DNA of 64,000 bases from positions 26,102,001 through 26,166,000 of the forward strand of contig JBHGNT010000001.1 of the NCBI GenBank assembly GCA_043228905.1. Direction: 5' to 3'. A program made the translations under genes and the position numbers. Below, one piece after another: positions 3,352 through 62,123 of this stretch. Position 1 is the stretch's first letter, and each line of letters begins with the position of its first letter. Source of the DNA: Azolla caroliniana (Eukaryota; Plantae; Polypodiophyta). The notes under the pieces are model-generated. The model had not been told where the DNA came from. It saw only the letters and a list, made by a program, of their open reading frames with translations, and did not search any database.

Positions 3352-4902
3352 CCACGTAAGGCCCGAACCACCGCTTCGCAAACTTCCGTGTTGCTCGGTG
3401 TTGGTTGTCGAGGCTGTTGTCGTAGACTACCACCCAGTGCCTTCCTCGATTTTCTTAGGTCGTAGCCGGTGCGTTCGGTTGAACCGGGCTTTGTTCTTCA
3501 TCCTCGCCGTCCGAAGTCTCTCCGCCGCTCGTTCCACGTCCTCTGGCCTCCGCTCGAGCTGTCGTATACGCGCCGCTAGCAGTTCTTCCTAGCTCATCTC
3601 GTCTCTCCAGTCCACTGTCGCCCAAGAGGAGATCGTCCGTTCAATTGGCATGATCGGCTTCTGTCCGAACATGAGCTCTGACGGCATGAACCCTGTTACC
3701 GAACTGTGTGTTGTCCTGTCCGCCCACAAGGCATAAGGTAACAGCTGTGGCCAGTTCCCGACCTGGCCTCCGCATGCCCGGACTAGCGCTTTGACGATCG
3801 GTCCGTGTCCGCGCTCCACCTTCCCGTTCGCCTCCGGATTGTACGCTGTGGTGAGCGAGAGCTTGACCCCTAACCGGTCGAACAGATCCTCGGCCTCTTC
3901 GGCGTCCAACTCCCCGCGGTCAGAACGATCTTCCCGACGCACCCGTACCGGCATATCACGTCCTCGATCAGGGACCGACACACGGCCACGGTCGTTTTGT
4001 TCTGCAGGGCTCGGCCTTCCACCCGGTTCGTCAGGTCCTCCCGGGCCAACACCAGATATCGCATCTGCCCTACGCCCATCGGCATCGTCACCAAATCTAC
4101 CATCCATTTGAAGTGGATGGCCGGAGGGTAAGTAGGGTGAAGCTCGTCCCGATGTCGGATTATGGAGTGCATCTGACAGCTCTCACAAGTTGTCACGAAC
4201 CGATGCACGTCCCAGCCACCAGTACTTCCCCTTTAGTTTCTCGAACGTGGCCCACGTCCCACGGTGTCCAACCCAGGGGCTGTCGTGGTAGGCCTTCAGC
4301 AACTCCTCCTGTTCCTCCTTCATCGCCACTACTCGGAGCGGGATGCCGTTTCTCTTCTTCGGGTGCTTCCACAGGTATCCGTCCCAGGAGAAAGAATCGG
4401 TACGCTTTCTTCCGGATCTGGTTGGCCTCGTCCTTTGTCCATGACGCGTCCGGCGTCTTCGTCCTTAAGAATCCCCCAATCTGCAGCCACTCCCCGTCGT
4501 ACTTGCTCTCGTTGAAATCGTTAAGCGCCGGAGTGCTCCACCCCTCGGTTGTTACATAAGCCGTCTCGAAGAAGTCCACACCGACTTCCTCGTCCTCCGA
4601 AACCATGCCGCCCTCGTCGTCGAATCGCGCCCTCGAAAGCATGTCGGCCATGGCATTGTCTTTCCCGGAAATGTGTGGTATTTCCGGATCCAGGGATTTG
4701 ATGTACGCTATCCACCTGAGCATTGCCAGGTCCGGGGTAGCACATCCGGAAACCATGCCGAGAATCGGCAGGCACTCCGTCTCGATAATCACCTCTGTCC
4801 CGATCAGATAGTCTTTATCGGCCTTCATCGCCGAAACGGTAACCCAGAGTTCGTGTTTAACCTGGGCGTATCCTCGTTGTTGCTCGCTGAGGACCTTCGC
4901 AC
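3352..4902 (-). pseudogene. pol: A2 pol, C-terminal part (RNase H end and integrase)
   Basis: ORFs 4193-4828, 3870-4208 and 3589-4107 are frameshifted integrase segments. Confidence 0.9.
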
Positions 4903-5443
4903 TGTCGCGTTGTTACGCGCGTGCGTGTAGAAGGGGCGGGACCGCGGGGGTCTTGGACTAGGGAGTGGAGGAGAAAGAATAGGACACGATATGGAGGCTT
5001 AGCTCAAGAGGAGAAGAGGAAAAGAATAAGACCACGACATCGAAGGAGAGATCGGCGGAGGCAAGATGTTCAACAAGTTATGTTAAAACAACGAACGGTT
5101 ACAACAGTGGTGGCCGCCATGGCCGCACCAAAATGACCATCCGAAAACCCTAAAGGGAAACCCAAGAAGAAAATCCTAACCGAAACCCTAACCCTAAAAC
5201 GAAATGGGAAGAGGGAGAACCCTAGACTAAGTGGTATACCTTACTCGCACAAAATAGGCAACCCCCTCATAAGTGACCCCTCCCTTCCTTTTATAGCCCA
5301 AGGAGGGAGGGACCTTACAATGTGGGACAAAAATGTCCCCTCTCTTTCTATGCACCATCCTAGTATACATGTGCACATGTTGCACACCACTGACTTGCCC
5401 CTTCCACCCCAGTTTCCGCCTATGGACAAAAATCTTCACGACA
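4903..5443 (-). repeat. B1 3' LTR
   Basis: TGTCG..CGACA termini; direct repeat of 8584-9124; TATAAAAG on the minus strand at ~5290; GGTGGGGGTGGA tract at 5444-5455. Confidence 0.95.
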
Positions 5444-5535
5444 TCCACCCCCACCAAACCGCACACCCACCGGTATGTGCCAAGAAAGGAAAGGGTGAGA
5501 GATTTCGTCCACGGTGATCAACCGGGTCTTTCGCC

Positions 5536-8439
5536 TTACCGGCACCCAACTGCCTTGCCGGTCCCTTGCTGGCGCCGATCCGTCTTGCCGGCCCCGACCC
5601 GTCGACTCCATCCGATCCGCCATGTCCACCGCGTTTCCCCGGACCGTCGGCTCCATCCGATCCGCCATATCCAACGTTCACGCCTTCTTCTTCGACCGAT
5701 CCTCCCGAACGCCATTGCCGATCTGGTCACTCTTACTTTGTCCGCCATGTAGGTCCTCCGATTAGGCCCTCGGTCACCCTGTTTGCTCGACGGATTCCGC
5801 CCCTCGCGTACCGCTTGTGTTCTATCTCCGGCTCGATCCTCTCGTCGTCTCGAACACCTCGTGCCAATTCCCTCCGTTCCGCGCTCACCTTCTGTAGGCT
5901 CTTCCCGTGCGCCCTTGTTGTCTCCCGAACATGCGCTCGTTCTTCGGTCCCTCGGTGACCTCATTACACGCTCCTTGCTTCTCCCTCGCTCGCCGTGCTC
6001 TCTCGCCGTAAAGCATACCGTCATCCTGACCACCATGTCAGTGTCCTTCGCGACTCCCGTTACCGCTTCATCCCGACTCTCGTCCTCTTGGCCCGCTTGG
6101 CCTCGCATGCCTTCCGGGAAGCCGCGCTTCCCCTTCCCGGCGCGCAGCCCGTTGCTCTTCACGCACCTCCTCCGGTTCTCAAGACATAGCCTTCCATGCT
6201 CGCCGATCATCCTCATGCTTGTCGTTCGGCCCTTACGCGGCCACATCGCACGTCTCGCACTCCGCTCCGCTCTGCGTCCCCTTTCGAAAAGGTACGTTGC
6301 TTCCCCGACATCCGTGTCGGTGCTCTCGTCTTCGGTGTCCTCCGCAACCTCCGATGTTGCCGCTTCGCCCCGAGGTACACCCTCTTGGTCCGCCTGGCCT
6401 TGTATGCCCTCCGGGAAGCCGCCACGTTTTCTCTTCCCGGTGTGTACCCCGTTGTTCTCCGCGCATACCCTCCGTTTTCCCAGACACAATCCTTCGTTCA
6501 CGCCGATCACGCCCGTCTCGCTTTGTTGATCTTGGCGTCTCGTCGCACCGCCCGTCGTCCCGCACTTGCCTCTTGAAGGCTTTCCCCGACCGTCATCGTC
6601 GGTCACTCGTTGCGGCTCTTCCGGGTGCATGCTTACTTCTTGGCCCTTCGCTGGCCGTAGTGCATGCTCCGTTTTACGCGCCTCATCCGTCGTAGACCCG
6701 ACCTCCGCGTCGGTCTCTTCGTCCTGTCTTGCCGTAGCCCCTTTTGATTGCGGCTTGCCGTCTTGGCCGTGCTCGTCCGTCTTCACGCACCGGGTACCCG
6801 TTCTAGTGGCCTCATCAGTTCCGGTCTCCGACTCCTCACCGCCACCCTTTGTGTCTCCGGTCTTATGTTGAACCGCAACCGCCGAAGTCTCAAGGATAGA
6901 TGTGGAGGGCTCCTCTCGCTCTCGGTCTTCTGCCAAGCCGTAATCACCGTGCCCGGTTAGCTTCCTTCTCGCGCTTACCGGCTCCCACCGAGTGTTGTGG
7001 CCCGTCCGCCTCGACCTCCAACCGTGCCAACTTAGCCTTCGCCCGGATCGGTCTCGGCCGATCGAGTTCCAGTTAGGTCGGCTCCCTTCCGTAATCGTAA
7101 CCGGCCGGTAGATGTTTGTCCGAACAAATCCGACCTTGCCAGCTCTTCTTCGGTTCGGGCCCGGTTGACCAGACCCCGCTCCAATGTTCTTCCGCGACGT
7201 CTTTCGGTCATGTCGGATTATCGACCGGTCCATCTTCCGGTCGGGTCGGTTCCCGACTCTCTCCTCTTTGCCGCTCCCGACCTCTCCGTCGGTCCTCTCG
7301 TATATGCCCGTTCCGGGCCTCGCGTCCTCATCTTCGTACGTGTTCGCTCCGGGCCACACCTCCTCATGGTCACCGCCCTTCTCTCCGGTCTTATGTTGGC
7401 ATTTGAGCGCAACCGCCGTAGTCTCCGGTCTCGGTGTCGAGAGGTCTTGCCTCCGTCCGCTATGACCTTCCTCGTCGTCGTTTCGATCGTCCGCTTTGCC
7501 GCCGCCACCTTTCGTCTCTCCGGTCTCACGTGGGCTCTCGGGGCCGATTGCCGAAGTCTCTAGAATAGGTGTGGGAAAAGTCCCGATACCGTTACTCGCC
7601 GATGCCATGTTCGTAGCCACCTTCGTTCGAACGTCGTGGTCCATGGCTATCTCTTCCTCGTTCTCTTCGTCGCCGTGGTAGGCCGCCTTGCCGCCACCAC
7701 CGCCCGTCGCTCTAGGTCTCACGCCAGCACTCGGGCCGGCCGCCGGAGTCTCTAGGACCGGTGTGTGTAAGGTCGCGGCACCGCCGCTTGTCCGCTCCTC
7801 ACTCAATGTTTCGGGCCGCCATGTCCCGAATCCGTAGTTACCGGCCTCCATGGCCATCCCTTCACCGCAAGGCAAGAGGGTCGCTTGCTCCGCACCCTCT
7901 CCTATCTCGCCGTCATATGCTCTCCCGGCCTCCGTATAGGCCCCGTCTTCTATGTCTAGGGAGGCTTCTTCCTCCGCATCCTCCGATCGTCTCTGGCCTG
8001 TCTCCATAACAAGCCCTTCTTCGGCTCCGATTTTCGCCTTCACAAGCTCGCATGCCTCTCGTATTAGCGCTTCTAGGTCGAGCTCCTCCGAACCGTTTTG
8101 CGTTGAGCTCTCTTCCGGCAATAGTGCGTACTCACTCGCCGCTCTCTTTTCTCTGCCGCTCGCGGGCCACGTTGTTGCCGACCGCTCCCCATCGGGTTGC
8201 CGGCATACCCACTCCGGTTTCGCGTATCCGCACGCTTCCAATAGGGCTACCTCCAAGGACACCCACGACTCGTGAGCTTCTCGTAGCTCCTTGACCTCCT
8301 TGTGCTCCGATGCGGCCGCCACTCGAGGAAAATACTCTAGCCGCATCTCGTCCACGCCCCCTTTCGCCATCTCGGCCTCGTACGCTTCCAAGAACCTCGG
8401 GACATCGTCCCCGTTGAATCGGCCGACTCGATCGACCAC
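5536..8439 (-). CDS. 967-aa ORF: Gag-like N-terminus plus long E/G/R/T-rich low-complexity repetitive tail
   Basis: VGRFNGDDVPRFLEAYEAEM..FPRVA resembles family A Gag IGRFGGKDATSYLEAYRTEI..FPRVA. The original start is probably ATG 8546, one frameshift upstream (compare B2). No knuckle, PR, RT or IN motifs. Confidence 0.6.
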   Translation of the reverse strand: MVDRVGRFNGDDVPRFLEAYEAEMAKGGVDEMRLEYFPRVAAASEHKEVKELREAHESWVSLEVALLEACGYAKPEWVCRQPDGERSATTWPASGREKRAASEYALLPEESSTQNGSEELDLEALIREACELVKAKIGAEEGLVMETGQRRSEDAEEEASLDIEDGAYTEAGRAYDGEIGEGAEQATLLPCGEGMAMEAGNYGFGTWRPETLSEERTSGGAATLHTPVLETPAAGPSAGVRPRATGGGGGKAAYHGDEENEEEIAMDHDVRTKVATNMASASNGIGTFPTPILETSAIGPESPRETGETKGGGGKADDRNDDEEGHSGRRQDLSTPRPETTAVALKCQHKTGEKGGDHEEVWPGANTYEDEDARPGTGIYERTDGEVGSGKEERVGNRPDRKMDRSIIRHDRKTSRKNIGAGSGQPGPNRRRAGKVGFVRTNIYRPVTITEGSRPNWNSIGRDRSGRRLSWHGWRSRRTGHNTRWEPVSARRKLTGHGDYGLAEDREREEPSTSILETSAVAVQHKTGDTKGGGEESETGTDEATRTGTRCVKTDEHGQDGKPQSKGATARQDEETDAEVGSTTDEARKTEHALRPAKGQEVSMHPEEPQRVTDDDGRGKPSRGKCGTTGGATRRQDQQSETGVIGVNEGLCLGKRRVCAENNGVHTGKRKRGGFPEGIQGQADQEGVPRGEAATSEVAEDTEDESTDTDVGEATYLFERGRRAERSARRAMWPRKGRTTSMRMIGEHGRLCLENRRRCVKSNGLRAGKGKRGFPEGMRGQAGQEDESRDEAVTGVAKDTDMVVRMTVCFTAREHGERGRSKERVMRSPRDRRTSACSGDNKGAREEPTEGERGTEGIGTRCSRRREDRAGDRTQAVREGRNPSSKQGDRGPNRRTYMADKVRVTRSAMAFGRIGRRRRRERWIWRIGWSRRSGETRWTWRIGWSRRVGAGKTDRRQQGTGKAVGCR

Positions 8440-8561
8440 CCTTCGACGGCTTGTTGAGCCGCATCTCGCTTCGCCATCTTTCGTCCAGCTTCCATCACGA
8501 TTTTTGCTATCATCTCCTCGAAGTCCAAGTCTTCTTCCACCTCCATGCTCCCTTGCCGCCC

Positions 8562-8579
8562 TTCACGTCGGGTTCACCA
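8562..8579 (-). promoter_or_regulatory. B1 primer-binding site, tRNA-Trp
   Basis: Plus strand TTCACGTCGGGTTCACCA equals the recalled 3' 18 nt of plant cytosolic tRNA-Trp; 4 nt from the LTR. Confidence 0.85.
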
Positions 8580-8583
8580 AAGA

Positions 8584-9124
8584 TGTCGCGTTGTTACGTG
8601 CGTGCGTGTAGAAGGGGCGGGACCGCGGGGGTCTTGGACTAGGGAGTGGAGGAGAAAGAATAGGACACGATATGGAGGCTTAGCTCAAGAGGAGAAGAGG
8701 AAAAGAATAAGACCACGACATCGAAGGAGAGATCAGCGGAGGCAAGATGTTCAACAAGTTATGTTAAAACAACGAACGGTTACAACAGTGGTGGCCGCCA
8801 TGGCCGCACCAAAATGACCATCCGAAAACCCTAAAGGGAAACCCAAGAAGAAAACCCTAACCGAAACCCTAACCCTAAAACGAAATGGGAAGAGGGAGAA
8901 CCCTAGACTAAGTGGTATACCTTACTCGCACAAAATAGGCAACCCCCTCATAAGTGACCCCTCCCTTCCTTTTATAGCCCAAGGAGGGAGGGACCTTACA
9001 ATGTGGGACAAAAATGTCCCCTCTCTTTCTATACACCATCCTAGTATACATGTGCACATGTTGCACACCACCGACTTGCCCCTTCCACCCCGGTTTCCGC
9101 CTATGGACGAAAATCTTCACGACA
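8584..9124 (-). repeat. B1 5' LTR
   Basis: Direct repeat of 4903-5443, adjacent to the PBS. Confidence 0.95.
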
Positions 9125-10880
9125 GCGCTGAACCGGATTGGGAACCGAATGCCGTCCTCATCTTCTTGGTTGACGACCCATGCGATCCCGGTCGGACTCG
9201 TATCTACCGTTATGTAGACGGGAGTGCCTTTCTCGTAGACAACCTTCCGGAGTGCCGGAGCTGCAGCAAGAGCCTCCTTCATCTTTCGCACCGACTCCGT
9301 ATGTTCGTCTCGCCACTCGAATTTCGCCCCTTTTTCAGCAACCCGTATAGCGGCTCGGCAACATGGGCGTAATGCGGGATCCATATGTGGTAGAACGCGC
9401 ATGCTCCCAAGAACCTCCGTACCTCCGTGATCGAGTTACAATCGGGCTACATTGTGGAGATGGCTTCCACCTTAGCCGGAGACGGTTTCCGGCCATACGG
9501 TTCGCATAGATGTCCGACGACCATGATCTCTGATTGCCCGAAGGCCGATTTCTCCCCGGAGAAGGTGAGCCTCGCGTCCTCTAGCCTCTGCAGCACCCTC
9601 TCGTAGTCGTCAATGTGTGTCGCCACGAATTTCCGGCATCCGTCCGGTCCGATCGTTTCGTCCTTTTTCTCCACCGGACATCCCTTGATCGGGATGTCGT
9701 CCAAGAATGGCATGGTGATGTCCGGCATACAATCCCTCAGCACCTTGTTCATTGCATTCACCATGTGGGCCACCGAGTTTGTCCCTCCTTGTGGCAGGGT
9801 ACACATCCGTACTAGGCCGAGAGGAGTCTGCATCGTCGTAATGTCTCTGCTCTCTATGGCTAGTTGGAACTGATCGTACCCCGAGTACAGATCACCAACC
9901 GAGTAGATCGGCCTTCCGGCGAAGGCCTCCGCGAACTCGTCTATCGTTGGTCCGATTCCTGCGTTCCGAATGGTCACTCTGTTTATCGGTTGCAGGTTTT
10001 GAATGAAGCACAACTTCCCGTTCTTTTTCGGTACGGTAAACCACCGGTTCGAGTACGGGGCACTCGACGGTTCGAGGATACCCATATCGACTTTCTGCCT
10101 CAATAGCTCCATTAGCTCCGGGATGTGAGCTCTCGGTACCGAAATTGGCTTAGAATTCCACGGCACATGCGGTACCGTGAATATCACCATCGGCTTCACG
10201 ACTGTCGGGTCTACGCACCCGATCTCTTCCGGTGAGAATGCGAAGGCTTTCCCATGCCTTCTGAGCATTCTCCCAAACCGGTCTTCTTCCGCCTGCAGCA
10301 GGAACCCGCCCCCACCGATTCTGAGCTCCCGTAGCGTTCTGTCGGTGAAGGTGTGTCCTATGCAGGCCGGATCTCGTAAACTGGGGTCCGACGCGACCCC
10401 CTTGATTCGCAAATCGCTGCCCTCCGGTAAGGGTGCCGCGACTGGCCTTACCTTCTGGTCCACAGTCTTGTACTTCGTATTAACCCGGGCCGTCTGATCC
10501 GACTCGAGCCCCCGACTGAAGTCCGTGATGACTTCATACATCTCTTCTGAACGAACCGGTATTGTCCGGTCTTCTTTAAGGCCCTCTCCGACCACCTCTC
10601 GCAGTATTCCCAAGGTATCGTCGAAGGAGACCGCCTCCACGGCTCCGTTGATTTCCTCGCTGGGCTCGAGAACTCCGCATGCCCGAAGTCGCTCTTCCGC
10701 CCTTGTCTTTTCTCGGCCAACGACGCCGACTATCGTACACCCTCCGTTGTCGGAGAAACAAAACTTCCTACTTATGGTACAAGGTTTCTTCGGTTTCGCC
10801 TCTATCGTAAATTTGTGGGGTTTTCTCGGAGTGTCCGGACTGTCGCGGCCCCATGCCTTGACAGTCCTCTCTAAAAATCC
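9125..10880 (-). pseudogene. pol: A2 pol, N-terminal part (RT and start of RNase H)
   Basis: ORF 9447-11357 from GFLER onward contains PWNSKPISVP, WFTVPKK, DLYSGY, LPQGGTNS, FLDD. Confidence 0.92.
10815..10880 (-). promoter_or_regulatory. Candidate -1 frameshift signal of A2
   Basis: G GAT TTT TAG, then stem GGACTGTC/GACAGTCC with loop TGGGG able to pair with downstream CCCCA. Confidence 0.75.
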
Positions 10881-12997
10881 TCTCGGTTCTCGCCACCGAG
10901 GGACTCGCGGTTTCGCTCGTGGTTCGGTCACACCGTCAAGAACTGGACCGAATGACGCCTGTCCTGACTCTTGACCCTCGCGTAAGCCGACCCGTTGTCC
11001 AGCAACTTGGTCTCCATCTACGATGCCGTAATGTACGGTTCTCCTAGTATGACCGGGTGCGAGGATGTCTCCTGCACAAAGAAATGTTGATCTATCTCGA
11101 CGTCGCCGATCTTGACTCGCACATTTGGGCAGGCCCCGTGTAGTTCCTCGGTGGCGCGCGTCGCCGCCCGTATCTTCCACCCGTTCTTGGTGTTGATTGG
11201 CCATTTCCCCTTCTTGTAGAAGTCCATGGACATCAGGTTTATTTCCAAACCGTGGTCCACCAGCACCACCACCAGTTCCTGAACATCTCCGATCTTCACC
11301 AGGGTTTCCGTGGTTGCTCGGGCCCAGTGTGGCCTCGAGTAGTGGCTCTCCGCCCACTCGTCTTCCAGCGCCATGTCCTCTATGTGAGTCGTCTGCACCT
11401 CCACCGGCCTTTCCGGTTCTGTCTCCGTCGACAGCCTCTTCCTCTTCACCAAGTCTACGATGGAATCGTGGAACTCCTTCTTGGCGATTCCGAGCACCTC
11501 CCGCAACGATAGTTCCACCTTGTTGTCGAGGATTCGTTCTTCCAGGACCTTTCGTAGGTCCGTGGTCCTTTCGATCTCTGTGCCCAACCGGTATCCGCCC
11601 TTCTTGTGGTTATCCTGGGCACTGGTCTCACCGGCCTCGTTCCGTTTCGGCCCGAATCGGGTTTCGTATCTTTGTGAGGGTCCGGCCCCTCCGGTTTTAC
11701 CTACCTGTTTGTTTTCTACCAGAGCCTCGTAATTCTGGGAAGCCGCTTCGACGAAACCCGTCTTTTCTTTGACCGGGTCACTCCACCCGGTTACCTCCTG
11801 GAGCCGCTTCTCCGCGCGGTTCGCCTCGTCTTTCTTTAGTCGGGCACAGGCGAGGCCTTCCAGCACCGTCGGCCAGAACCCGGCTTTGCTCTCCTTCCGG
11901 GCCTCGCTGCCTCCGACCCGAATACCGGCTAACGCTGAGTAGTGGACGCTCTCCGCGTGTCGGGCCGCCGCCTCTTCCATCAGCCTTTTCATTCCTCCTC
12001 GGCCGTCGTTTCGGTTTAGGGCCCTCCGGGTATCGTTGGCGTGCACCCAACCTTCCCACAAGTACACTACTCGGCTTTTCAAAGCCTCCGCAAAGTCCCC
12101 GCAGTCTTTCCGGATGTGGCCGACCTCGTCGCACCACATGCACCTATTTCTTGCCGGAGGCCGTCGGTCACGAGCTTGTTCGCTGCCTTCCCTCCGAGCC
12201 TGGGCGATCTAGAGATCCTTTACCGCCCGTGTCAACTCCTCCAAAGCTGTTCCCCCGGACGAGCCTCTGACCACGCCGGTCGAAGCCAATCCGGTTTCGA
12301 GCCACTCCCGGGTCTCTTCCCTTCGCGCCTGCGGTATCGGTTCGAAATTCCTTGCTGCGATAGGACCCGCCCCGATCGCCCCTGTATCAGCCCACTCCCA
12401 CCGTTTGTCAAAACGGCCGCAGACTCTTTTTACCACGGCCCAGTTGGCCGTCAGCCCGTCTTCGGTTTCCAGTAAGGAGCCCACTTGCTCCCGATCCCGT
12501 GCGTCAACCGATTTGACAAACAATAGGACACAACTTGTGTCCAGAACAGTCCGATCGAGCGCCGAAAGGCGCGCAAAGCGTTCCTCAAACTCCCGGAGTA
12601 GTACCGACGCATTTCTTCCTTTGTTGGGGGACTCCACCCACTCCATGAAGCCCCGCTTTGAAAGTCGAAGCGCGTCATCCAGCCTATATTTCTCCAGGAG
12701 CCGTCCTTCGAACTCCTCCGAGGTCCGGCTCTCCGCCCGGACCTCGAGCACCTCCGCATGGATGCCCGGCATCGCCACTCGAGAGAATCCGGCAAGACGC
12801 CTCTCTTCCGGAATATCCCTCATCAACATCTCCGCCCGGTAGGTTGCCAAATAACTCGTGGCATCCTTTCCACTGAACCGGCCGATCGTACCGACAATCG
12901 CCTCAATAGCCCTGTCAAGGGCGCTGGTGCCCTCGCGCGCGCTCACTATCCAGTCCACGGCCGAAGCCATGGCCTCTGCAAGGTCCGACCCCCTCAT
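10871..12997 (-). pseudogene. gag: A2 gag-protease
   Basis: ORFs 12209-12997 and 11018-12139 are separated by a single TAG; CCHC knuckle; VDHGLEIN. Confidence 0.92.
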
Positions 12998-13014
12998 CTT
13001 CTGCCATGGCCTTT

Positions 13015-13032
13015 TTCATGTCGGGTTCACCA
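13015..13032 (-). promoter_or_regulatory. A2 PBS, tRNA-Trp
   Basis: TTCATGTCGGGTTCACCA, one C>T change. Confidence 0.85.
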
Positions 13033-13036
13033 AATA

Positions 13037-13687
13037 TGTCGCGTTACTACGCGCGTGCGTGGAGAAACGAGGCGGGACCACCGGGGTCTTAAACCAAAGA
13101 GCAGGTGATAGAAGGGGAAAGAGAAAGAGAGAGACGCTCGGTTACGTATGAGCCAAGAAACACAGGGACACGGCCCTGTCAACGCAGAAGACACGAATGG
13201 ACACAGAGACAGAGAGACACGAATGTTTGTATATTAATGAATGACAAATAAACAACAGAGCACGCGAGCGGTTACAACCGAACAGGCCGACGAACAGATG
13301 TCGATGCCTGCTCGTCTGCGCACGAAAGGGGATAGGATGGAGGTGCTGCCGGAAGCACACAGGTGTTCCTCGAAGCAGCGCGAGCCTCTCGAAAACCTGC
13401 AGAGAAAAGCGATGGAGAACGAATAGAGGAGAAGCGTTCGGTTTCGGTCCGACAGTAGTTCGTCCTCCTCAATGCGCGATCCCCTCTCCCCGCGTCTCCC
13501 TCTTTGTTTATATCTTCAAGAAGGGAGCCGTTTCCCTCATTTACTTCCTACCTACCGAATCTAACTACCCACGATATACCTATGTACCTAATTCCCTATT
13601 ATATACATTAAAGGGCGCGCACGCGTGAAGAGCCGGTTCACGCGCGCTATGCACCGATTGCGCCAAGGGACGGTTTTCTTCACGACA
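13037..13687 (-). repeat. A2 5' LTR
   Basis: TGTCG..CGACA termini; similar to the solo LTR at 61488-62105; outer flank GCGT lies in the A3 integrase. Confidence 0.9.
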
Positions 13688-16149
13688 GCGTAAGGAAGGA
13701 GTCACGGCCAATTCCCGACCTGCCCACCGCATGCACGCACCAATGCCTTTACAATCGGTCCGTGCCCACGTTCCACCTTTCCGTTCGCCTCGTGAAATGC
13801 CGCTAGTAGTTTCCCCTATTCTTCTTTCTTTGCCACTACTCGGAGTGGAATGCCGCTTCTCTTCTTTGGGTAACTCCATATGCACCCGTCCCGCAGGAAG
13901 AATCGGTACGCCTTCCTCCGTACCCGGCTCGCCTCCTCTCTCGCCCATGCTGCGTCCGGCGTCATCGTCCGTAGGAACCTCCCGATTTGGAGCCACTCCC
14001 CATCGTACCTGCTTTCGTCAAATTCGTTAAGCGCCGGAGTGTTCCCTTTTCTCGTCGTTATGGTAGCCAACCCGAAGAAGTCTTCGCCGACTTCTTCGTC
14101 ATCCGAAACCATGCCGTCTTCGTCGTTGAACCTGGCCCTCGAAAGCATGTCGGCCATGGCGTTGTCCTTTCCGGAGATGTGTCGTATCTCCGGGTTCAGG
14201 GACTTAATGTACGCTATCCACCGGAGCATTGCTAGGTCCGGCGTCGCGCATCCGGAAACCATGCCGAGTATCGGCAGGCAGTCCGTCTCGATAATCACCT
14301 CCGTCCTGATCAGATAATCCTTGTCGGCCTTGACTCCCAAAATGACACCCCAAAGTTCGCGCTTTACTTGGGCGTATCCTCGCTGCCGCTCGCTCAATAC
14401 CTTCGCCCCGAACCGGATCGGGAATCGTACGCCGTTCTTGCCCTCTTGACTGATTACCCACCCGATCCCGGTCGGGCTGGTGTACACCGTTACGCAGATG
14501 GGAACATCCTTGCCGTAAACCGCTATACGGAGAGCCGGCGCTGCCGTAAGCGCCTCCTTTAGTCTCCGAATCGACTCTGTGTGCTCCGTCCTCCACTCAA
14601 AACTACGCCCCTTTTTCAGTAGTCCGTAGAGGGGTTCTGCGACATGTGCGTAGTGCGGGATCCAGATGTGGTAGAACGCGATGCCCCCATGAATCTGTGG
14701 ACCTCCGTGACCGACCCGCAATCATTCCTCATCGCGGAGATGGCCTCTACCTTTGCCGGAGACGGTTTTCTACCGTAAGGCCCGCACAAGTGTCCGACCA
14801 CCAAGATCTCCGACTGTCCGAAGGCCGACTTTTGCCTGGAGAAGGTGAGTCTCGCGCCTTCTAGTCTCTACAGCACCTTCTCGCAGTCATCGATGTGAGT
14901 CGCCACGAAATTCCGACATCCGTCCGGCCCGACTACCTTGTCCTTTTCCTCCACCGGGCATCCCCTGATCGGGATGTCGTCTAAGAATGGCATGAGGATG
15001 TCCGGGATACAATCCCTGAGCACTTTGTTCATCGCGTTCACCATGTGAGCCACTGAGCTCGTCCCCCCTTGTGGCAGGGTACACATCCGCACTAGGCCGA
15101 GAGGAGTCCGCATCGTCGTAATTTCTTGGCTCTCCACGGCTAGTTGGAACTGATCATACCTCGAGTACAGATCACCGACAGAGTAAATCGACCTTCCGGC
15201 GAAGGCCTCCGCGAACTCGTCTATGGTCGGTCCGATTCCTGCGTTACGGATGGTCACCTTGTTGACCGGTTGCAGGTCCTGACTGAAGCGCAGTGTGTTG
15301 TTCTTCTTAGACACCGTAAACCACCGATTCGAATATGGGCACTCGGAGGTTTGAGGATGCCCATATCCACCTTTTGCTTTAGGATCTCCATCAACTTCGG
15401 GATGTGAGCTCTTGGCACCGGAATCGGCTTGAGATTCCACGGTACATGCGGTACCGTGAAGATCACCATCGGTTCGACAACTGTCGGGCTACGCACCCGA
15501 TCTCCTCCGGTGAGAATGCGAAAGCCTTCTCGTGCCTTCTGAGCATCCTCCGAAACCGGTCCTCCTCCTTCGGCAGTAGGAAGCCGCCCCCACTGACCTT
15601 GAGCTCTCGTAGCGTTATGTCGGTGAACCGGTGCCCTATGCCAGCTGGATTCCGTAAACTTGGGTCTGACGCGACCCCTTTCATCCGCTCCTCGCTGCCC
15701 TCCGGCAGGGGTGCCGCTACTGGCCTCACCTTCCGGTCCACAATCTTGTATTTCGTATCCACGCGGGCCGTCCGATCCGACCCGATCCTTTCCCCGGAGT
15801 CCGCGATGACTTCGTACATTCCCATCAATCCTATCGGAACGGTCCGGTCTTCTCTAAGGTTTTCATCGATCACCTTTCATAGTTCGCCCAAGGTGTCGTC
15901 AAAAGAGACCGCCTCCACGGCGCCGCTGATGTCTTCGTCGGGGAAAAGGACTCCGCATCCCTTGAGCCGCTCCTCCGCTCGCTTCCTCTCCCGGCCGCTG
16001 ACGCTGGTTATAGTACAACCTCCGTTGTCGGAGAACCAAAACTTCCTACCCATGGTACAAGTCTTCTTCCGTACTGTACATTTGTGGGGTTGTTTCCGGG
16101 AGTCCAGACTATCGCGGCCCCACGCCTTGATAGCCCTCTCTAAAAATCC
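13688..16149 (-). pseudogene. pol: A3 pol (RT, RNase H, partial integrase)
   Basis: ORFs 15463-15873, 14868-15440 (PFLDDIP) and 13816-14721. Confidence 0.9.
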
Positions 16150-18249
16150 CCTCGGGCTTCGCTGTCGAGGACCTCTCGGTTACGCTCGTAGTTTAGTCTC
16201 ACCGTTAGGAACTGGACTGAGTGGTGCCCGTCCTGGCTTTTGACTCTTACATAGGCTGAACCGTTGTCCAGCACATTGGTCTCCATCCGTGCCGCCGTGA
16301 TATATGGCTCTCCTAGTATAACCGGATGCAAGGACGTCTCCTGCACAAAGAAGTGTTCGTCGATCTCGACATCGCCGATTTTTACCCGTACGTTCGGACA
16401 TGCCCCATGTAGTTCTTCCGTGGCGCGCGTCGCTGCCCGTATCTTCCAGCCGTGCTTGGTGTTGATCGGCCATTTACCCTTCTTGTAGAAATCCATGGAC
16501 ATCAGGTTGATTTCGGATCCATGGTCTACCAACGCCACCACCGGTTCCAGAACGTTGCCGATCCGTACGGGGGTTTCCGTAGTTGCCCTGGCCCAATGCG
16601 GCTTCGTGTAGTGGCTTCCCGCCAGCTCGTCTTCCAGGCCTTCGTCTTCCAGGTGCGTGGTCCGCACCTCCACCGGCTTCTCTGGTTCTGGCTCCGTCGA
16701 GAGCCTCTTATGCTTCACGAAGTCTACGATAGAGTCGTGGAACTCCCACTTGGCAATCCCCAGCACCTCCCGCAATGACAGCTCCACTTTATTGTCGAGG
16801 ATTCGCTCTTCAAGGACCTTCCGTAGGTCCTTTGCTCTCTCGATTTCGGTGCTCAACCGATACCCCGCCTGCTTCTTCCCATCCAGCACGCCTGGGTTGC
16901 CGGCACCGGTCGGTTTCGGTCCGAACCGGGTCTCATACCTCGGGGGGCCGACCCCTGCGGCCTTTCCTGCCCGTTTGTCCTCCACCAGAACCTCGTAGTT
17001 CTGGCAAGTAGCTTCTACGAAGCCCGTTTTCTCTTCCACCGGATCGTCCCAACCGGTCAGCTCCTGGACCCGCTGTTCCGCGCGGTCCACCTCCTCCCTC
17101 CTCAGCCGAACACTGGAGAGGCCTTCTAGCACTAGCGGCCAGAATCCGGAGTCCTTCGCCTTCCGGGTCTCATCACCCCCGACCCGAATTCCCGTCGACA
17201 CTGACTAGTTAACGACTTCGACGTGCCGTGCCGCGGCCTCTTCCATCAACCTCTTCATGCCGCCACGTCCCGTATTCAGTTCCAGGGCTCTTTGGATCTC
17301 GCTCGCGTGCACCCGCCCGTTCCAGAGGTACACCACGTTGGTCTTGAGCGCGTCGGCGAAATCCGAGCAGTCACACCACATGCACCGCTGCCCAACCAGC
17401 GGCCTCCAGTCGCGAGGTTGTTTACCGCTGTCTCTTCGGGCCTATGCGATCTGCAAGTCGCGCACCATCTGTGTTAGCTCCTCCAGAGCCGCTCCTCCGG
17501 ACGGGCCTCTCACCACATCGTTCGATGCCGACCTCGACTCCGGCCAGATTCGGGTCTCTTCCTTCCTCCCAGCCGACACCGAAACCGGCTCCTCGAGCCT
17601 CCTCCCCGGGACCGTCCCCGACCCCGACGTGCTTCCGTCGCTCCAATCGCGCCGTTTGTCGAAACGGCTACAGACCCATTTTACCACGGCCCAATCCATC
17701 GTGAGTCCTTCTTCCGTTTCACAATAGGGGACCTACCTTTTCCCTGTCGAGCGCATCCACCGACTTGACAAACAGCAGTACTCGACTTGTTTCGAGCACC
17801 GTCCGGTCCAGTGTCGACAGCCGCGTGAACCATTTTTCAAACTCTTGGAGGAGCACCGACGTGTTCCTCCCTTTTCTGGGGCTTTCCACCCACGCCATGA
17901 AGTCCCGCCTCGACGGCCGGAGCGAGTTGTCAAACCTGTACTTCTCGAGGAGCTGCAGCTCAAACTCCTCCCAAGTCTGGCATCCGGCCAGCATCTCGAG
18001 CACCTCCACATGGATGCCCGACGTCACCACCCGAGGGAATCGGGACAGCCGCCTGTCCACCAAGATATCCCTCATGATCATTTCGGCCTGGTAAGCCTCC
18101 AAATAACTTGTGGCGTCTTTCCCTCCGAAACGGCCTATAGAGCCGACGATCGATTCAATGGCTCTGTCGAGGGTACCCATTCCCTCACGAGCGCTCACCA
18201 GCCGGTCGACGGCCACCGCCATTGCCTCTGCTAGCTCCGATCCCCTCAT
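16140..18249 (-). pseudogene. gag: A3 gag-protease
   Basis: ORFs 17719-18249, 17442-17699 and 16140-17201 (VDHGSEIN; ends RGDF*). Confidence 0.9.
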
Positions 18250-18294
18250 CTTTTGACTCCTTTGCTGCCCTTTTCACGTAGGGTTCACCAAAGA

Positions 18295-24515: not shown

Positions 24516-24559
24516 TATTTGGTGAACCCGACGTCAAAAGGCGGTAGAGGAATAGAAAG

Positions 24560-25473: not shown

Positions 25474-25505
<32 letters not shown>

Positions 25506-40598: not shown

Positions 40599-40672
40599 GC
40601 GTGGGCTGGTCTTCTCCGGCAGGAGTCTAATTTTGGCGCATACCGGTGGATGCGCGGTTAGGTGGGGGCGGA

Positions 40673-41084: not shown

Positions 41085-41147
<63 letters not shown>

Positions 41148-51115: not shown

Positions 51116-53396
51116 CATCTAATCTATTCCACTTAACTTTATTACTCTAGGCAATTATTTACATGGTATTAGAGAGCGTTGGTAATTCGATCTAGCCCAT
51201 CTGTGTGTGTTTTGTTCTATGCCAACGCTCAAGAAGAATTGGCTCATCGCAATTGTAGTGCTACTACATAGCTCATATCTAAGGAAGAAGAAGAATCTAA
51301 GGAAATTGTCACAACCCAAGCTTCGAAGATGATGTCGATGTCCAATAAACGAATATAGTAACAAACGAGAAGACAATAACATGACAATATGACAATAATT
51401 TGTATTACCGTGAACCAAGATTACATGGTGGCTAAAGTCTGGTGTTGAACCGAAATGGTTCAACACTAAGTAGATCTTCGACTTATATAGTGTAAATAGG
51501 ATTGTGCATGATCGCCATTTGGCATACATGCTATGTGCCATTTGGCGATCATCTACGGTGTCTAGTGCCCCATAATCCTTGAATAATAATAATATGAAAA
51601 TATATTTATTAATTAGAGTGTAAGACCCTTATTTAAAGGTTATAAGTTCAAATCTTGATATTGACATTTCGTGATAGAAATCGACATCGACATCATGAAC
51701 ACTCAAATGGGTAGCTCTCTCCCTAGCGAGAAGTTGGACCGAAACAACTTTGCATCTTGGGAGTACAAGATGCACCAATACCTTGTCGACCAAGGTTATT
51801 GGAGCTACGTCAAAGGAGCACAAGAAAATAAACCCAACTCAACGATTCCGAATATGTAACATGGGAGCAAACGACGAGCCGAGTGATGTATTGCTTGGTG
51901 ATATGTGTCCATGACCACATGCCAAGATACCGCAGGAAGCTTGGGAGAATCTCAAGAAAATATTTAGCTTCAACTACGCCAAGAGTTGATTAATGTCCAA
52001 CAAAGGGACATGTCTATCACAAGCAACACCTAGAATATCAAGGAGCTTTGTTATTCACTCGGCTCAATAAGTGTCAATGTGGAGGATGATGAGATGGTGC
52101 AAATATGCCTAGGCGGCCTCGCACTACCGTTCGGCGCGATGAGAACCATCGTCTTAGCAAGGGAGAATCTTCCCACCTTCTTCAAACTTCAATCAATGTT
52201 ATTGGTTGAAGAAAACCATGTTCAAACCAAGAGCAACATCTCGTAAGGCCACATGCTCTACACACACTCGAACGAAGGAAGAGAAATGATGCGGTCGTGC
52301 AAGAAGAGACCGATTCAGCGAAGGACGAGGCGGATGAGGTTCAACCTATGGAAACAACTCCCATTACCGGCAAAACGGTGGAAACACAAGAGGAATGTTT
52401 GAAGAGCTTCCATGCCAGACCATACCGACGAAACAACCCTGTCAAATGTGGATATTGTGGCAAAATCGGCCACGATCATGAAGAGGAGTGTCGAAAGAAG
52501 AAGAGTGAGTCATTCTACAAGCTGACAACTCACCAATTGTGCCACCAACTCTGAATACGGAGACTATGGTGGATTGTTCGTAACAAGACATAGATTGAAC
52601 TCTATGTTGACCCTCGGCCCGACCAACACCTCTAATTCAGAAGACGTATGGTTTGTCAACTCTAGCGCATCAAACCATATGACGTCTCATCAAGAATAGT
52701 TCTGAGATCTACGAGAGCCGAATTGACCTGGCTATGTCGAGACCAGAGATGATACCAATCACCCCATTCGAGAAAGACGGCGAACAAACTTGTATAAAAA
52801 ACGTCTTACATGTACCGACCATCACAAAGACTTTGGTCTCAATCAGCCAAATTATGGAGTAAGGCATGCAAGTCCGATTTAACCAAGGTGGTTGCTTCAT
52901 CGAGAAAGAAGGTCGATTCATCATTCGTGGTCGAAGGGAAGGCCGAATGTTTATCCTCGAGTCGAATGAGGTAAAATCGGTCATGTTTGCAAACGGCCAT
53001 AAAGCCGACACCGATATAGAGCTATGACATAAAAGAATTGGCCATATCAACCTCCAAAAGCTCAAGGGGGTGCAATCGAAAGAAGTCGTCATCGGTCTCC
53101 TGACCTTCAAAGAGAAAGAGATTGAAGGCATCGGCACGCATTTCCAAAAGAACGAAACTTGTTCAAAGGTCTCCTAGATGTGATCCACCCATACATTGTC
53201 GTGATGTTTCTAACACATAGTGTGAAACCACCCTCGAAAAGAAGCAAAATAGTAGTTTAAATAAACTAGTATTGTGAAGTCAACTTTATTGGTAGCAAAA
53301 ATACTTTTTCATTTTGCCAAAGATAATTCCTTATAAATAATAGGTCAAAGGATTTTCATTTCTACAAGAAGGGAAGATGGCCTATTAACATGAACC

Positions 53397-54584
53397 ATGG
53401 ATGGAAGATTCATGTGGCGACGAAGGCAACGGAAGATCTTTATGAAACAATATCAACAAACACTAATTGCGGAATTTCATGATAGTGTGTGGACAGGTCA
53501 TCGAGGTATATGGGCAACTTTTGCAAACCTCAAGGAGAAGTATTGGTGGCCGGATGTTTACAAAGATGTAGCAAGCTATGTTGAAACATGTGCGCAATGC
53601 CAATTATACCCGAATGTTCAACATAGGGATGAACTTCATCCGACATATCCATTATCAATGCACTATAAGTGGTTGGTAGACATAGTGGTTATGCCAATGG
53701 GCTTGTGGCAAATGAGATACCTCGTGTTAGCAAGAGAGGATCTCACCAACCAAGTAGAAGGTCGGGCACTAAGGAATAAAATAACTTTGGTGGTTTGCAA
53801 GTTTCTCCTTGAAGATGTTATTTGTCGATACGGATGTGTCAGCAAAATAGTAGCCGATAGAGGAGAATTAGATGCAAATGAAGCTAAAGAGTTTTTCTCA
53901 AGGATAGGCATCAAATTATCACTTACTATAGCATACAACCCGGAGGCAAATGGAAAGGTGGAGAGGGGACATAGCCCGATTGTAAAAGCTCTAGCAAAGG
54001 CTCGTGATGGGAAGATGGGGGACTGGCCACGATTATTACCATATGCATTGTGGGCCGATAGAACTACACATAGCATGACTACAGGATATATGCTAGCCGA
54101 GCTCATATTAGGGCAAAAACCAATCATGCCTATCGAGCAAAGTGTTACCTCATAGACGGCTTTGCCATGACAAGAGGAGATGAGTCGAGAAGACTTGCTA
54201 GCTACATGGATCCAGCAATTAGAACGGAAACCCAAAGATGTCGAGTTAGCAATAGAACAGTTACGTGAGGCTCGATTGAGGAACAAGGAGAATTTTGATA
54301 AAAAACATTGTCTTCGTCTAAGAAAATTTGAAGAAGGAGATTGGGTACTTGTCTATGATAATAGCCTTGATAATCAGCATAACACTACTCGAAAGTTCAT
54401 GAAACGATGGTTTGGCCCATATGTGGTTTAGGAAATTGAAAACAATGCAACCTATTTTCTAGCGGAGTTAGATGGAACTCAACTTGCTTTGCCGATTGCA
54501 GGGAAGAGAATCAAGGTCTTTAAGAGAAGAGAGACCACAAGTCCTCACATCGAACCTCTAGACTTCGAGGTTCAAAAAGAATAA
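53397..54584 (+). pseudogene. pol: F integrase
   Basis: FHDSVWTGHRGIWATF..CAQC; LAREDLTNQVEGRAL; IVADRGE; WFGPY; clearly homologous to the family A integrase. Confidence 0.92.
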
Positions 54585-54645
54585 GCAATAGGAGCTAACA
54601 ATCATTGGCACATACCGGAGGATGTGCTGGTTTGGTGGGGGTGGA

Positions 54646-56171
54646 TGTCATGATGTTTCTAACACATAGTGTGAAACCACCCTCGAAAAGAAGCAAAATA
54701 GTAATTTAAATAAACTAGTATTGTGAAGTCAACTTTATTGGTAGCAAAAATACTTTTTCATTTTGCCAAAGATAATTCCTTATAAATAAAAGGTCAAAGG
54801 ATTGAACCTTGCAATAAATAATGATGAATATTAAGTTAGAGGCGGTTTTCAAAAGTAGAGAAAAAGATGGATATAAAAAAAAAACGCGTGAATATGAGCA
54901 CAATAGAGAAAAAATCTCATAATGTCCTCATCAGATGTCCAAATTAGAAAACAAAAGATGCCTAAGAAAGCTAACCCAAAGAGTTTTCCAAGAATATCTT
55001 GCATGTGAAATTTGGGGCTAGAAAACAGAAATAGTGAGGAAAAGAAAGTTGACTCATATAGACAAGCTTTTTTTTAGGGGAAAAAGGCAAGCAATCTAAA
55101 ACCTATAAATAAGAGCCTATTCTAGTGAAGAAGGGGGGGAGGGAGAAGGAATGCAGAAGCTCTACTCAATTGGACGGCAAAAGAAGAAGGATCAACAACA
55201 TCGAGAGGCATCATCAACAAAGAATCACCTTCTTCTATATTCCACTCTCTTCTTTCCTCCACCTCTCTTCCCCCTGCGTTTATAAATTATCTCTCGTATT
55301 CATATCAAACCCGTTGTAAAAGTGATTCTTATTTTATAAAAGAATCTATTATATTGTAATAAAGAAATGTTTGGTTTCACCTATGTGTCTTATATGTTGT
55401 CGTCATTTGTGCTTATTTGTTTGTGTCTTGTGACAAGGGAACGTTTCGGGCTTGCCCATGCACCTCTCCTTTCACAAAGGCATTCAAACTTTCATGTCTT
55501 GCGTGATAGTGTAAATCTTTCTTGTGTGATCGTGCGACTTGTGGCAAGGGAGCGTTCGGGCTTGCCCATGCACCTCTCCTTTCACAAAGGCGTTCGAAAT
55601 TGTGTCTCCCGTGTGTAAACCTTGCTTGTGTGATCGTGCAACTTGTGGCAAGGGAATGTCGGGCTTGCCCATGCACCTCTCCTTTCACAAAGGCGTTTGA
55701 AATTGTGTCTACTGTGTGTAAACCTTGCTTGTGTGATCGTGCGACTTGTGGCAAGGGAGCGTTCGGGCTTGCCCATGCACCTCTCCTTTCACAAAGGCGT
55801 TTGAAATTGTGTCTCCCGTGTGTAAACCTTGGTTGTGTGTTTGTGTGTCTTGTAACAAGGGAGTGTTCGGGCTTGCCCATGCACCTCTCTTTTCACAAAG
55901 GCATTCAAAACGTTGTCTCTCGTGTGTGTAAGTAAGCCTTTTGCTTGTGTTTCCATGTGTAAGACTTCCCCACGTGCATTCGTTCGGCTTGTGACTAGGG
56001 GTTGATTCGGGCTTGCCCATGCACCTCTCCTTTTCAAAAACACGTTCCAATACTCATGCCTTGTTTGTATAAGACTTCCTTGTGTTGTGCGTGTGAGCCC
56101 TATTTCGTTCCTGTCCATAACCCCGGCGGTTCCGCCTCATGATCCGCACATAGTGACGGATTTTCACGACA
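54646..56171 (+). repeat. F 3' LTR, about 1.5 kb
   Basis: TGTCATG..CACGACA termini; CTATAAATA at ~55102. Confidence 0.85.
55415..56045 (+). repeat. About 104-bp tandem repeat, 6 copies, in the F LTR
   Basis: Core CGGGCTTGCCCATGCACCTCTC at 55447, 55557, 55660, 55764, 55868 and 56008. Confidence 0.93.
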
Positions 56172-59860: not shown

Positions 59861-61487
59861 AGTTGTCGATACACTCTGGAATAGAATGACATAGCCGAGA
59901 GGAAGAATCGGTCGATCGTCGAGGCGGCACGGGCAATGTTGGAGGAGAAGAGCATGCCCAATTCTACTGGGCCGAAGCGGTCCGGATGGCCGTCTACATT
60001 CAAAACCGGATCGGGATAAGGTGTCAGCACACAAGCTATATTTCGGGAGGAAGCAGAATTTACGACACGTGAGGATATTCAGCAATATTGCATATGTGCA
60101 TGTGTTGGATGAGAGGCGGAGAAAGCTGGACCCGAAGTCGGAGAAGTGCATTTCGGTCGGCTACTCACACGAATAGAAGGGGTGTGAGTGTTATAACCCC
60201 GAACTAAACAAGTTCAAGTAAGCCGCGATGTCGAGTTCGATGAGTCGGCATCATGGTACTCCTTACCGACTCCGGCTCCGACCCCCGACAACTTCGACTA
60301 CCTGATCACAGAGGATGAGGCCAATGAGGAAATGATCCGAGCCGAAGATGATGATGATGAAGAGTTCGGTACTCGAGATGAGAGTCCGATCTCATTCCGG
60401 TAGAGTTGTCCAAATGAAGGGCTGAGTCGGAAAGACCAGCATGATGATGAGCCAGTAGGTAGTAGCGACTCAATTGTGCTCTCCCCGCGCAAGGAACCGA
60501 AGAGACGGTTCACGCGCAAAGAAAAGGGGAAGAAGAAGATGTCAGAATATGACACCGGTAGGGACGAATCAGATTGGAGCGAATTCGACTCCAGAAAGAA
60601 CGAAGATGGACCTTCGGAGACAAAGTTCAAATTGGCCAAGGGAGCCCTTAAATCGCCTAACGAGAAGTTACGCTAATCTAACCACTAAAAGAATCTCGTG
60701 AAGCGGTATGGGTATAATGAGTACATGGCGCATCACTAATGCGTACATGACTAAAGTGGCGGAAGTGTGTGAGCTAGAGAGCTACGCAGAAGTGGCGAAA
60801 GACGCGAACTGGCATGCCGCGATGGAGGAAGATATGCGGGCACTCGATGCCAACAACACCTGGGATCTGGTTGACCCTCCCCGACACTACAAACTGGTCG
60901 GTTGCAAGTGGGTCCGGCTAGTGGCGAAGAGATATGCATAGACCCACAGAATCAACTATGATGAGACCTTAGCTCTGGTAACGAAGATGACGACAGTCTA
61001 TGTGCTGCTAGCGATTGTTGCGGCAAGGGGTGGCATCTTCACCAAATGGATGTGAAGAATGCGTTTTTTCAAGGCGATCTTAAAGAACAAGTCTACATGA
61101 TTCAGCCCCTTGATTTCCAATTGGAGATGAACAAGTCAGCAGTGTACCGAGTCAAGAAGTCGCTCTATGGCTTGAAGCAAGCCCCCCGATCTTGGAATTT
61201 TAAAGTCACGCACCGGTTGCGTAAGATGGGGTTCGCAGCCTCGAAGTCTAACTCTTCGTCGTTCATCCAGAAGGTCCAGTGTGCATCTTGCTATATCTGG
61301 ATGATCTAGTCATCACCAGACCCGGACTCGCTGAAACCGGCCAAGTCAAGTCCCAATTGTTGTATGCGTTCGAAATGAAGGACCTGGGGGACCTTCATTA
61401 TTTCCTCGAGATCGAAGTGATCCTAAACCCTGGACTGGAACCTGAAGCTTCATCCCGACTCCGAACCAGCCTGCAACGAGAGACCGT

Positions 61488-62105
61488 TGTCGAGGTATTC
61501 CTCGCGGATGCGTAGAACGAGGCGGGACCTCGGGGGTCCTGTACCGAAGAGCAAGAGAGAAATGAGAAGAGACCCACTACGTGCAAGCATAGATCCACAG
61601 GGACACGGCCCTTCGACCCAAAGACGCGAGTGGGACAGCGACACAGAGAGACACGAATGTATGTATGTATTAACAAAGACAAAAACAACAAGAGGACGAA
61701 GTCGGTTACAACCGAACAGGCCGGCGAACAGATGTCGATGCCTGTTCGTAAACGCACAGAAAGAAAGGAGTAGGTTGGAGGTGCTGCCGGAAGCACTCGG
61801 GCATTCCTCAGAGCAGCGCGAGCCTCCCGAAACCTGCACAGAAAGGAGCTATGGAGTTTGGAAGAGAGAGAAGCCTTCGGCCTACAATCCGACAGCACTT
61901 CGTCCTCTCTTACTTCGCGATCCCTTCCTCCTCCTCGTCTCCCTCCTTTTATAGGCAAGAAGGGAGCCGTTTCCTATTAACTTCTTACCTACCGAATCTT
62001 CCTACCTAGGATCTTCTATGTACAACGTAAGGCGTACGTGCATGAAGAGCCGGTTCCTATGCTCCGGCGCACCGATTCCGCTCGTGGACGGTTTTCTTCA
62101 CGACA
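61488..62105 (-). mobile_element. Family A solo LTR (A2-type)
   Basis: TGTCG..CGACA termini; perfect 4-bp TSD CCGT; similar to 13037-13687. Confidence 0.93.
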
Positions 62106-62123
62106 CCGTTCCGACAGATTGTC

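What the first reader, a model, noticed from the sequence alone, without database searches (positions are those of the whole stretch)
4899..62109. All seven A/B/F insertions are in a 4-bp target centred on CpG (NCGY)
Seen: GCAC/GCGC (4899, 9125; empty site GCGC at 1648); GCGT (13688, one side only); ACGC (18882, one side only); GCAT/ATGT (23833, 41401; the host frame implies GCGT); ATGC/ACGC (24880, 35335; empty site ACGC at 21); ACAT/ACGT (53193, 56172); CCGT/CCGT (61484, 62106). Nearly all mismatches are CpG-decay transitions. The other families here make 5-bp TSDs (CATCA, CGCTC). Known: plant gypsy elements usually give 5-bp TSDs with weak sequence preference, while sequence-specific 4-bp targets are known for Drosophila errantiviruses such as ZAM and Tirant. 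Inference: a CpG- or methyl-CpG-reading integrase could steer these chromodomain-less elements into other transposons.
Basis: partly seen in the sequence, partly recalled or inferred. Interest (0 to 1): 0.8.

Follow-up and report, generated by a model that had tools for sequence, protein, structure and literature searches.

The report
Jumping genes that insert at CpG
These plant-type jumping genes almost always land on a four-base target with CG in the middle, a habit already reported for their moss relatives (the Phygy group); their integrase likely reads the CG sequence itself, and whether methylation of that CG matters is untested.

Summary
All seven insertions have 4-bp duplications centred on CG or its decay products TG/CA. 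Related empty sites at five of them confirm the 4-bp length. It holds outside the window: 70 of 79 distinct 5' flanks (background CG 3.5%) and 18 of 19 3' flanks of related LTRs in metagenome contigs are CG-centred. The motif is better written VCGB (ACGT 34 of 79) than NCGY.

It is not new. Neumann et al. 2019 list the moss non-chromovirus clade Phygy with '4 bp (100%) (NCGN)'. These elements look Phygy-like: DUF4100 gag with many Physcomitrium homologs, Riccia and Adiantum pol relatives, no chromodomain. Formal membership could not be tested against the reference sequences.

Likely mechanism (inferred): a 4-bp-stagger intasome kinks the target at a central pyrimidine-purine step, and integrase side chains narrow this to CG; TA was seen at 0 of 79 sites. 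No methyl-reader domain is present. Methyl-CpG sensing and steering into transposons are neither shown nor excluded. New here: another host lineage, a sharper motif and candidate residues.

The parts
4903..9124 (-). Element B, non-autonomous, 4222 bp; LTRs 8584-9124 (5') and 4903-5443 (3'), 98.7% alike; TSD GCAC 4899-4902 / GCGC 9125-9128; sits in the RNase H region of A13
3350..13687 (-). Element A13: 5' LTR 13037-13687, PBS, DUF4100 gag-protease, RT-RH-INT; 3' end lost; flank GCGT 13688-13691 lies in the integrase of A18
13688..18881 (-). Element A18: 5' LTR 18295-18881, gag-pol truncated in the integrase; flank ACGC 18882-18885
23837..41400 (+). Element A23, full structure, 7109 bp after removing the nested C24; LTRs 23837-24515 and 40673-41400; pol ends near 40562, about 110 bp before the 3' LTR; TSD GCAT 23833-23836 / ATGT 41401-41404
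24884..35334 (+). Element C24, non-autonomous, 4706 bp without the nested chromovirus; LTRs 24884-25637 and 34579-35334; TSD ATGC 24880-24883 / ACGC 35335-35338; sits in the gag of A23
53197..56171 (+). Element F, internally deleted: 5' LTR remnant 53197-53354, integrase 53403-54557 (65% to P0004), 3' LTR 54646-56171 with a 104-bp array; TSD ACAT 53193-53196 / ACGT 56172-56175; sits in copia-like DNA
61488..62105 (-). Solo LTR S61, 618 bp; TSD CCGT 61484-61487 / CCGT 62106-62109
1..3281 (+). Truncated A copy (A1) carrying the empty sites ACGC 21-24 and GCGC 1648-1651
26410..32149 (+). Control: chromovirus (Chromo domain in 31160-31702), 455-bp LTRs, 5-bp TSD CGCTC
22329..23037 (.). Control: solo LTR of another family with 5-bp TSD CATCA (22324-22328 / 23038-23042)

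Best explanation
The seven insertions belong to one lineage of chromodomain-less Ty3/gypsy retrotransposons, likely the Phygy lineage known from moss, that duplicate a four-base, CG-centred target (mostly ACGT), likely because the integrase itself reads that sequence. Shown: the 4-bp length, the symmetric VCGB motif, the lineage's relatives and the lack of an extra integrase domain. Inferred: as in the foamy-virus intasome, a 4-bp stagger forces a sharp kink at a central pyrimidine-purine step, and lineage-specific side chains narrow YR to CG. Candidates are the conserved CTD beta1-beta2 loop (L-x-x-Q-H-S-x-x-R-K-F-x-x-R-W) and the invariant Glu at the PFV Ala188 / HIV Ser119 position. After insertion the duplicated CpGs would be methylated and decay to TG/CA. 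B and C24 lack pol and would use the A-family integrase in trans.
For: Central CG in 70 of 79 distinct left flanks against 3.5% background (P about 1e-91; the search motif held only LTR letters) and in 18 of 19 right flanks. TA, the commoner YR step (6.1%), appears at 0 of 79; TG/CA at 6 of 79, in line with about 11% CpG transitions per site between LTR pairs (31 of 278 sites). T first and A last are avoided (1 and 2 of 70, against 36% expected), the same edge rule as for 4-bp retroviruses (PMC4422553 passages). Majority letters of loose ends at the B LTR end read ACGT in 1547 reads and in 100 and 85 contigs; the chromovirus LTR end shows only its own polypurine tract (683 reads). The gag query returned 33 Physcomitrium proteins among the 120 listed. 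An RH-INT tree nests A and F among Riccia/Adiantum elements (quick tree). Neumann 2019: Phygy 4 bp (100%) NCGN, n=186. Intact relatives end in an SH3-like barrel plus a short disordered tail. DRGEL has E in 70 of 70 sequences and aligns to PFV DQGA.
Against: No biochemical or methylome data, so direct readout and methyl-boosted readout cannot be separated. In PFV and HIV the 188/119 residue acts outside the duplicated bases, and Arg329 contacts the edges (PMC4005685, PMC4422553 passages), so the residues that read the central CG are only candidates. The PFV CTD loop did not align in my searches (alignments stop near PFV residue 281); the loop is matched by its position in the Ty3 alignment. 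The PBS could not be tied to tRNA-Trp by any search. A23 (7109 bp) is below the Phygy size range (7656-9968). All 122 outside loci come from 11 assemblies with neighbouring accession numbers, probably one host lineage. Of 8 solo LTRs with both flanks only 3 match 4 of 4.
Confidence: 0.7

Rival explanations
1. The integrase prefers methylated CpG: the 5-methyl group at the kinked step favours capture, so the elements land in silenced, repeat-rich DNA without a chromodomain.
For: Cytosine methylation created strong target sites for an alpha-retroviral integrase in vitro (PMC11054761 passage citing Kitamura 1992; the original is not held). Decay patterns show CG and CHG methylation of these elements. 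In moss, Phygy inserted in Tcn1 was the commonest type among 26 repeated nested pairs (PMC6911290 passage), and Phygy domains are enriched at liverwort centromeres (PMC12885004 passage). At least 32 of 79 outside flanks resemble retroelements (union of the two lists, counted by hand).
Against: No MBD, SRA, CXXC or chromo hit and no room for such a domain. Flank CpG o/e is flat with distance from the site (0.795, 0.796, 0.797; 47 flanks). Decay only shows methylation after insertion. There is no genome-wide repeat or methylation background to compare with.
Confidence: 0.2
2. Pure shape readout: the 4-bp intasome only needs a flexible pyrimidine-purine step, and CG is simply one of them.
For: Four retroviruses with 4-bp TSDs favour a central YR and avoid T first and A last (PMC4422553), as seen here.
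Against: Their YR enrichment averages only 63% over background, whereas here CG is 89% of sites. TA is 0 of 79 although it is commoner than CG.
Confidence: 0.04
3. A host ACGT-binding factor (bZIP/bHLH type, recalled) tethers the intasome to its site.
For: ACGT is 34 of 70 CG-centred sites against 4.5 expected. C precedes the TSD in 43% of left flanks and G follows it in 9 of 19 right flanks.
Against: Half of the sites are other VCGB words. A bound factor would cover the very bases that are cut (inference). The symmetric motif lies exactly on the duplicated bases.
Confidence: 0.04
4. Artefact of picking LTR ends or of assembly.
For: Short-read contigs across LTRs can be chimeric (4 of 8 two-sided solo LTRs mismatch in ways CpG decay cannot explain).
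Against: The unbiased window scan, empty sites, raw reads and no CG excess at neighbouring offsets (0-5 of 79).
Confidence: 0.02

Closest known systems
Phygy clade, non-chromovirus Ty3/gypsy of Physcomitrium patens (Neumann et al. 2019, PMC6317226; passages, part 3 of 8 of the text, supplementary file 5 whole)
   Same: 4-bp TSD with NCGN preference; no chromodomain or aRH; coding region fills the internal part; gag-protease homologous to P. patens proteins (E down to 1e-99).
   Different: Another host (P. patens proteins only about 30-69% identical); about 7.1 kb against 7.7-10 kb; motif here resolved as VCGB with ACGT dominant; non-autonomous partners (B, C24) and a long-LTR sister family (F).
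Ginger1 DNA transposons (PMC2836005, passages)
   Same: Gypsy-like integrase with GPY/F motif; 4-bp CG-centred TSD (CCGG 75%, CCGT/ACGG 24%); TGT termini.
   Different: DNA transposons with terminal inverted repeats in animals; CCGG dominant there, 1 of 79 here.
Prototype foamy virus / MLV 4-bp intasomes (PMC4422553, PMC4005685, passages)
   Same: 4-bp stagger, VYRB consensus, avoidance of T first and A last; integrase homologous (E 1e-24).
   Different: Their preference is weak and accepts any YR; here CG is near-obligatory.
Drosophila errantiviruses ZAM/Tirant (PMC5408687, PMC3276498, passages)
   Same: Sequence-specific 4-bp palindromic targets.
   Different: Target CGCG (central GC, not CG); AGT/AnT termini and an env ORF, against TG...CA ends and no room for env here.

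Membership tests
Phygy | Clusters with P. patens Phygy elements in RT-RH-INT trees | tested here: inconclusive
   No labelled Phygy pol was available (REXdb fasta too large). Indirect: the RH-INT tree nests window A/F among Riccia and Adiantum elements; P. patens DUF4100 gag-protease falls among the same Riccia/Adiantum proteins. Both are quick trees.
Phygy | Ty3/gypsy order GAG-PROT-RT-RH-INT spanning nearly the whole internal part, no extra ORF | tested here: met
   A23 and A13 map to P0298, P0004 and P0126 collinearly; pol ends about 110 bp before the 3' LTR.
Phygy | No chromodomain and no extra (aRH) domain | tested here: met
   Pfam on 7 pol-bearing relatives; model with SH3-like C-terminus and disordered tail; tails of 68 of 70 relatives are 57 aa or less. 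aRH was judged only from the lack of a second RNase H hit.
Phygy | 4-bp TSD with NCGN preference | tested here: met
Phygy | PBS mostly tRNA-Trp (81%) | tested here: inconclusive
   A conserved PBS starting TGGTGAACCC follows the 5' LTRs. Its match to plant tRNA-Trp is recalled only; searches found no tRNA to confirm it.
Phygy | Size 7656-9968 bp (descriptive; the paper calls size relatively insignificant for classification) | tested here: not met
   A23 is 7109 bp. With the untested tree this is why I file the elements as Phygy-like, not as formal members.
Chromovirus (Tcn1, Tekay etc.) | Chromodomain on the integrase; mostly 5-bp TSD | tested here: not met
   only the nested element at 26410-32149 qualifies.
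Errantivirus (ZAM/Tirant) | env ORF, AGT/AnT termini, CGCG/TATA/ATAT targets | tested here: not met
   TG...CA ends, no room for env, VCGB target.

The most novel reading that the evidence does not exclude
The Phygy-lineage integrase is a methyl-CpG-sensing recombinase: its conserved C-terminal loop reads 5mCpG at the kinked target step and sends the elements into silenced repeats without any chromodomain, a targeting rule kept across moss, liverwort, fern and this host.
Probability: 0.17. Interest if true: 0.75.

Novelty: new member of a known kind. Interest (0 to 1): 0.3.

Why it matters
The preference itself is in print. This case adds another host lineage, a sharper motif (VCGB, ACGT dominant, TA excluded) and conserved candidate residues. 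That makes an apparently unexplained property testable: how an LTR integrase becomes near-specific for CpG, and whether it senses methylation. If it does, it would be a new way for a retrotransposon to find heterochromatin.

Tried and rejected
No whole genome is held, so no genome-wide logo or repeat background; I used a metagenome scan instead. I dropped 32 PPT-preceded ends and 11 duplicate flanks before counting 79. The motif did not cover family F; only two F-type 3' ends with host flanks turned up (TCGT and ATGT).

PBS identification failed: paper search 0 hits; viral and genome scans 0; 27 looser matches held no tRNA; 60 of the 122 metagenome loci held no tRNA.

The ESM Atlas gave only generic gypsy integrases. 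Foldseek of the pol model gave only RT and integrase structures among the rows shown. Cluster look-up gave no organism names. The careful RH-INT tree did not finish; the quick tree is reported. A fungal Ylt1-type identity was considered from memory and dropped, since the close named relatives are moss, liverwort and fern.

The host is not identified. A charophyte alga is a recalled guess, and the search with that name listed nothing on it. Searches (listings only) showed no paper that explains or tests the Phygy NCGN preference. Neumann's additional files 1 and 3, unseen, hold the actual Phygy TSDs and sequences.

Full report
Setting. The window is a stack of nested LTR retrotransposons. No whole genome is held.

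Observation. A scan with the clade's own LTR ends finds these seven insertions and no exception. Seven of twelve flanks have a central CG and five have CA or TG. With CG at 6.9% and CG/TG/CA at 18.9% of window dinucleotides, P is 7e-7 (6 of 7 sites with CG) or 9e-6 (7 of 7, decay included). Related empty sites show a single 4-mer for B, C24, A13 and A23 and for F, which fixes the duplication at 4 bp. A chromovirus and a solo LTR of another family make 5-bp TSDs. The two one-sided cases are likely due to one deletion that joined A1 and A13 tail to tail near 3281-3350.

Outside test. Thirty-two were internal 3' LTRs, and 90 flanks collapsed to 79 distinct ones. Central dinucleotide: CG 70, TG 4, CA 2, other 3, against 3.5% CG in the flanks; neighbouring offsets had CG in 0-5 of 79. 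Right flanks: 18 of 19 CG. ACGT made 34 of the 70 CG-centred sites (4.5 expected); T first and A last were 1 and 2 of 70 (36% expected). The motif is therefore the palindrome VCGB; 11 of 79 end in G, so 'NCGY' is a strand artefact. Of 8 solo LTRs with both flanks, 3 match 4 of 4, 3 match 3 of 4 and 2 match 2 of 4; none exceeds 2 of 5 in a 5-bp register. These loci come from 11 assemblies with neighbouring numbers, and their best LTR matches to the window are 66-77% identical, so they are independent insertions but probably one host lineage. In sequencing runs, the majority letters next to the B LTR end read ACGT in 1547 raw reads and in 100 and 85 contigs (no such row was shown for the fourth run). 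The chromovirus control shows only its own polypurine tract.

What the elements are. A1, A13, A18 and A23 are gag-protease-RT-RH-INT elements of about 7.1 kb with a DUF4100 gag. F is a deleted sister family. B and C24 lack pol but share LTR ends and primer site. Pol relatives are Riccia and Adiantum proteins at about 50-60% and unnamed ones up to 77% over the full query. The gag query returned 33 P. patens proteins among 120 listed. Quick trees nest A and F among Riccia/Adiantum RH-INT and place the P. patens gag-protease among the same taxa. Neumann et al. [quoted passage not shown] TSD, domain order and lack of a chromodomain are met. The tree against labelled references and the primer identity could not be settled, and the size is slightly below range. 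I file them as Phygy-like.

How it likely works. Intact relatives end in an SH3-like barrel and a short disordered tail, with no Pfam chromo or methyl-binding hit. In the foamy-virus intasome a 4-bp stagger unstacks the central step, which selects YR, and 4-bp retroviruses avoid T first and A last (PMC4422553 passages). The same edge rule holds here. Bendability alone fails, because TA is absent and TG/CA (6 of 79) match the decay rate seen between LTR pairs (CG 31 of 278 sites, CHG 15 of 153, CHH 10 of 795). Base-specific reading of CG is therefore inferred. Candidates are the invariant Glu at the Ala188/Ser119 position (70 of 70) and the conserved CTD loop, in the region where PFV Arg329 contacts target bases (PMC4005685 passages). 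None of this is shown biochemically.

Methylation and steering. Methylated C can create strong targets for a retroviral integrase (PMC11054761 passage), so a methyl boost remains possible (0.2). The sequence gives no positive sign: no reader domain, and flank CpG o/e is flat with distance. Decay shows methylation after insertion only. Nesting in this window is uninformative. At least 32 of 79 outside flanks look like retroelements, with no background to compare.

Verdict. Real and strong, but already described for the Phygy lineage and paralleled by Ginger1 transposons (PMC2836005 passages). New member of a known kind; interest 0.3. The open part is the mechanism, for which my searches (listings only) showed no paper.

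Noticed in passing
window 1-3281 (+) and 3350-13687 (-): Two A copies, 91-94% alike, are joined tail to tail with both 3' LTRs gone, forming a large imperfect palindrome; the same event likely removed the 3' part of A18.
   Followed up: partly
L038 (- strand, near the match); run X21 joint 5443>4934: LTR-ACGT-LTR tandems: the duplicated CG target appears to be re-used by a later insertion, so each insertion would leave two fresh targets.
   Followed up: no
window 5536-8562 (-): Non-autonomous B holds a 1008-codon stop-free frame with no Pfam hit; only its first 90 residues weakly resemble gag (E 6e-4 against P0126).
   Followed up: partly
LTR pairs of B, C24, A23, chromovirus, F: CHG transitions are about as frequent per site as CG transitions (about 10% against 1% for CHH), which suggests CHG methylation in this host.
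   Followed up: partly
window 54646-56171: The F 3' LTR is 1.5 kb and carries a 104-bp tandem array (55427-55927); its LTR ends differ from those of A/B yet it uses the same target.
   Followed up: no
window 26410-32149: Young chromovirus (LTRs 99.6% alike) whose gag, pol, integrase and chromodomain lie in separate stop-to-stop frames.
   Followed up: no
window 22329-23037 and 62858-63783: LTR family with 54-bp tandem repeats; solo copy with TSD CATCA.
   Followed up: no
window 20136-23832 + 41405-43373 and 45037-48441 (-): Two copies, about 65% alike, of another gypsy family on a long branch of the RH-INT tree; not classified.
   Followed up: no
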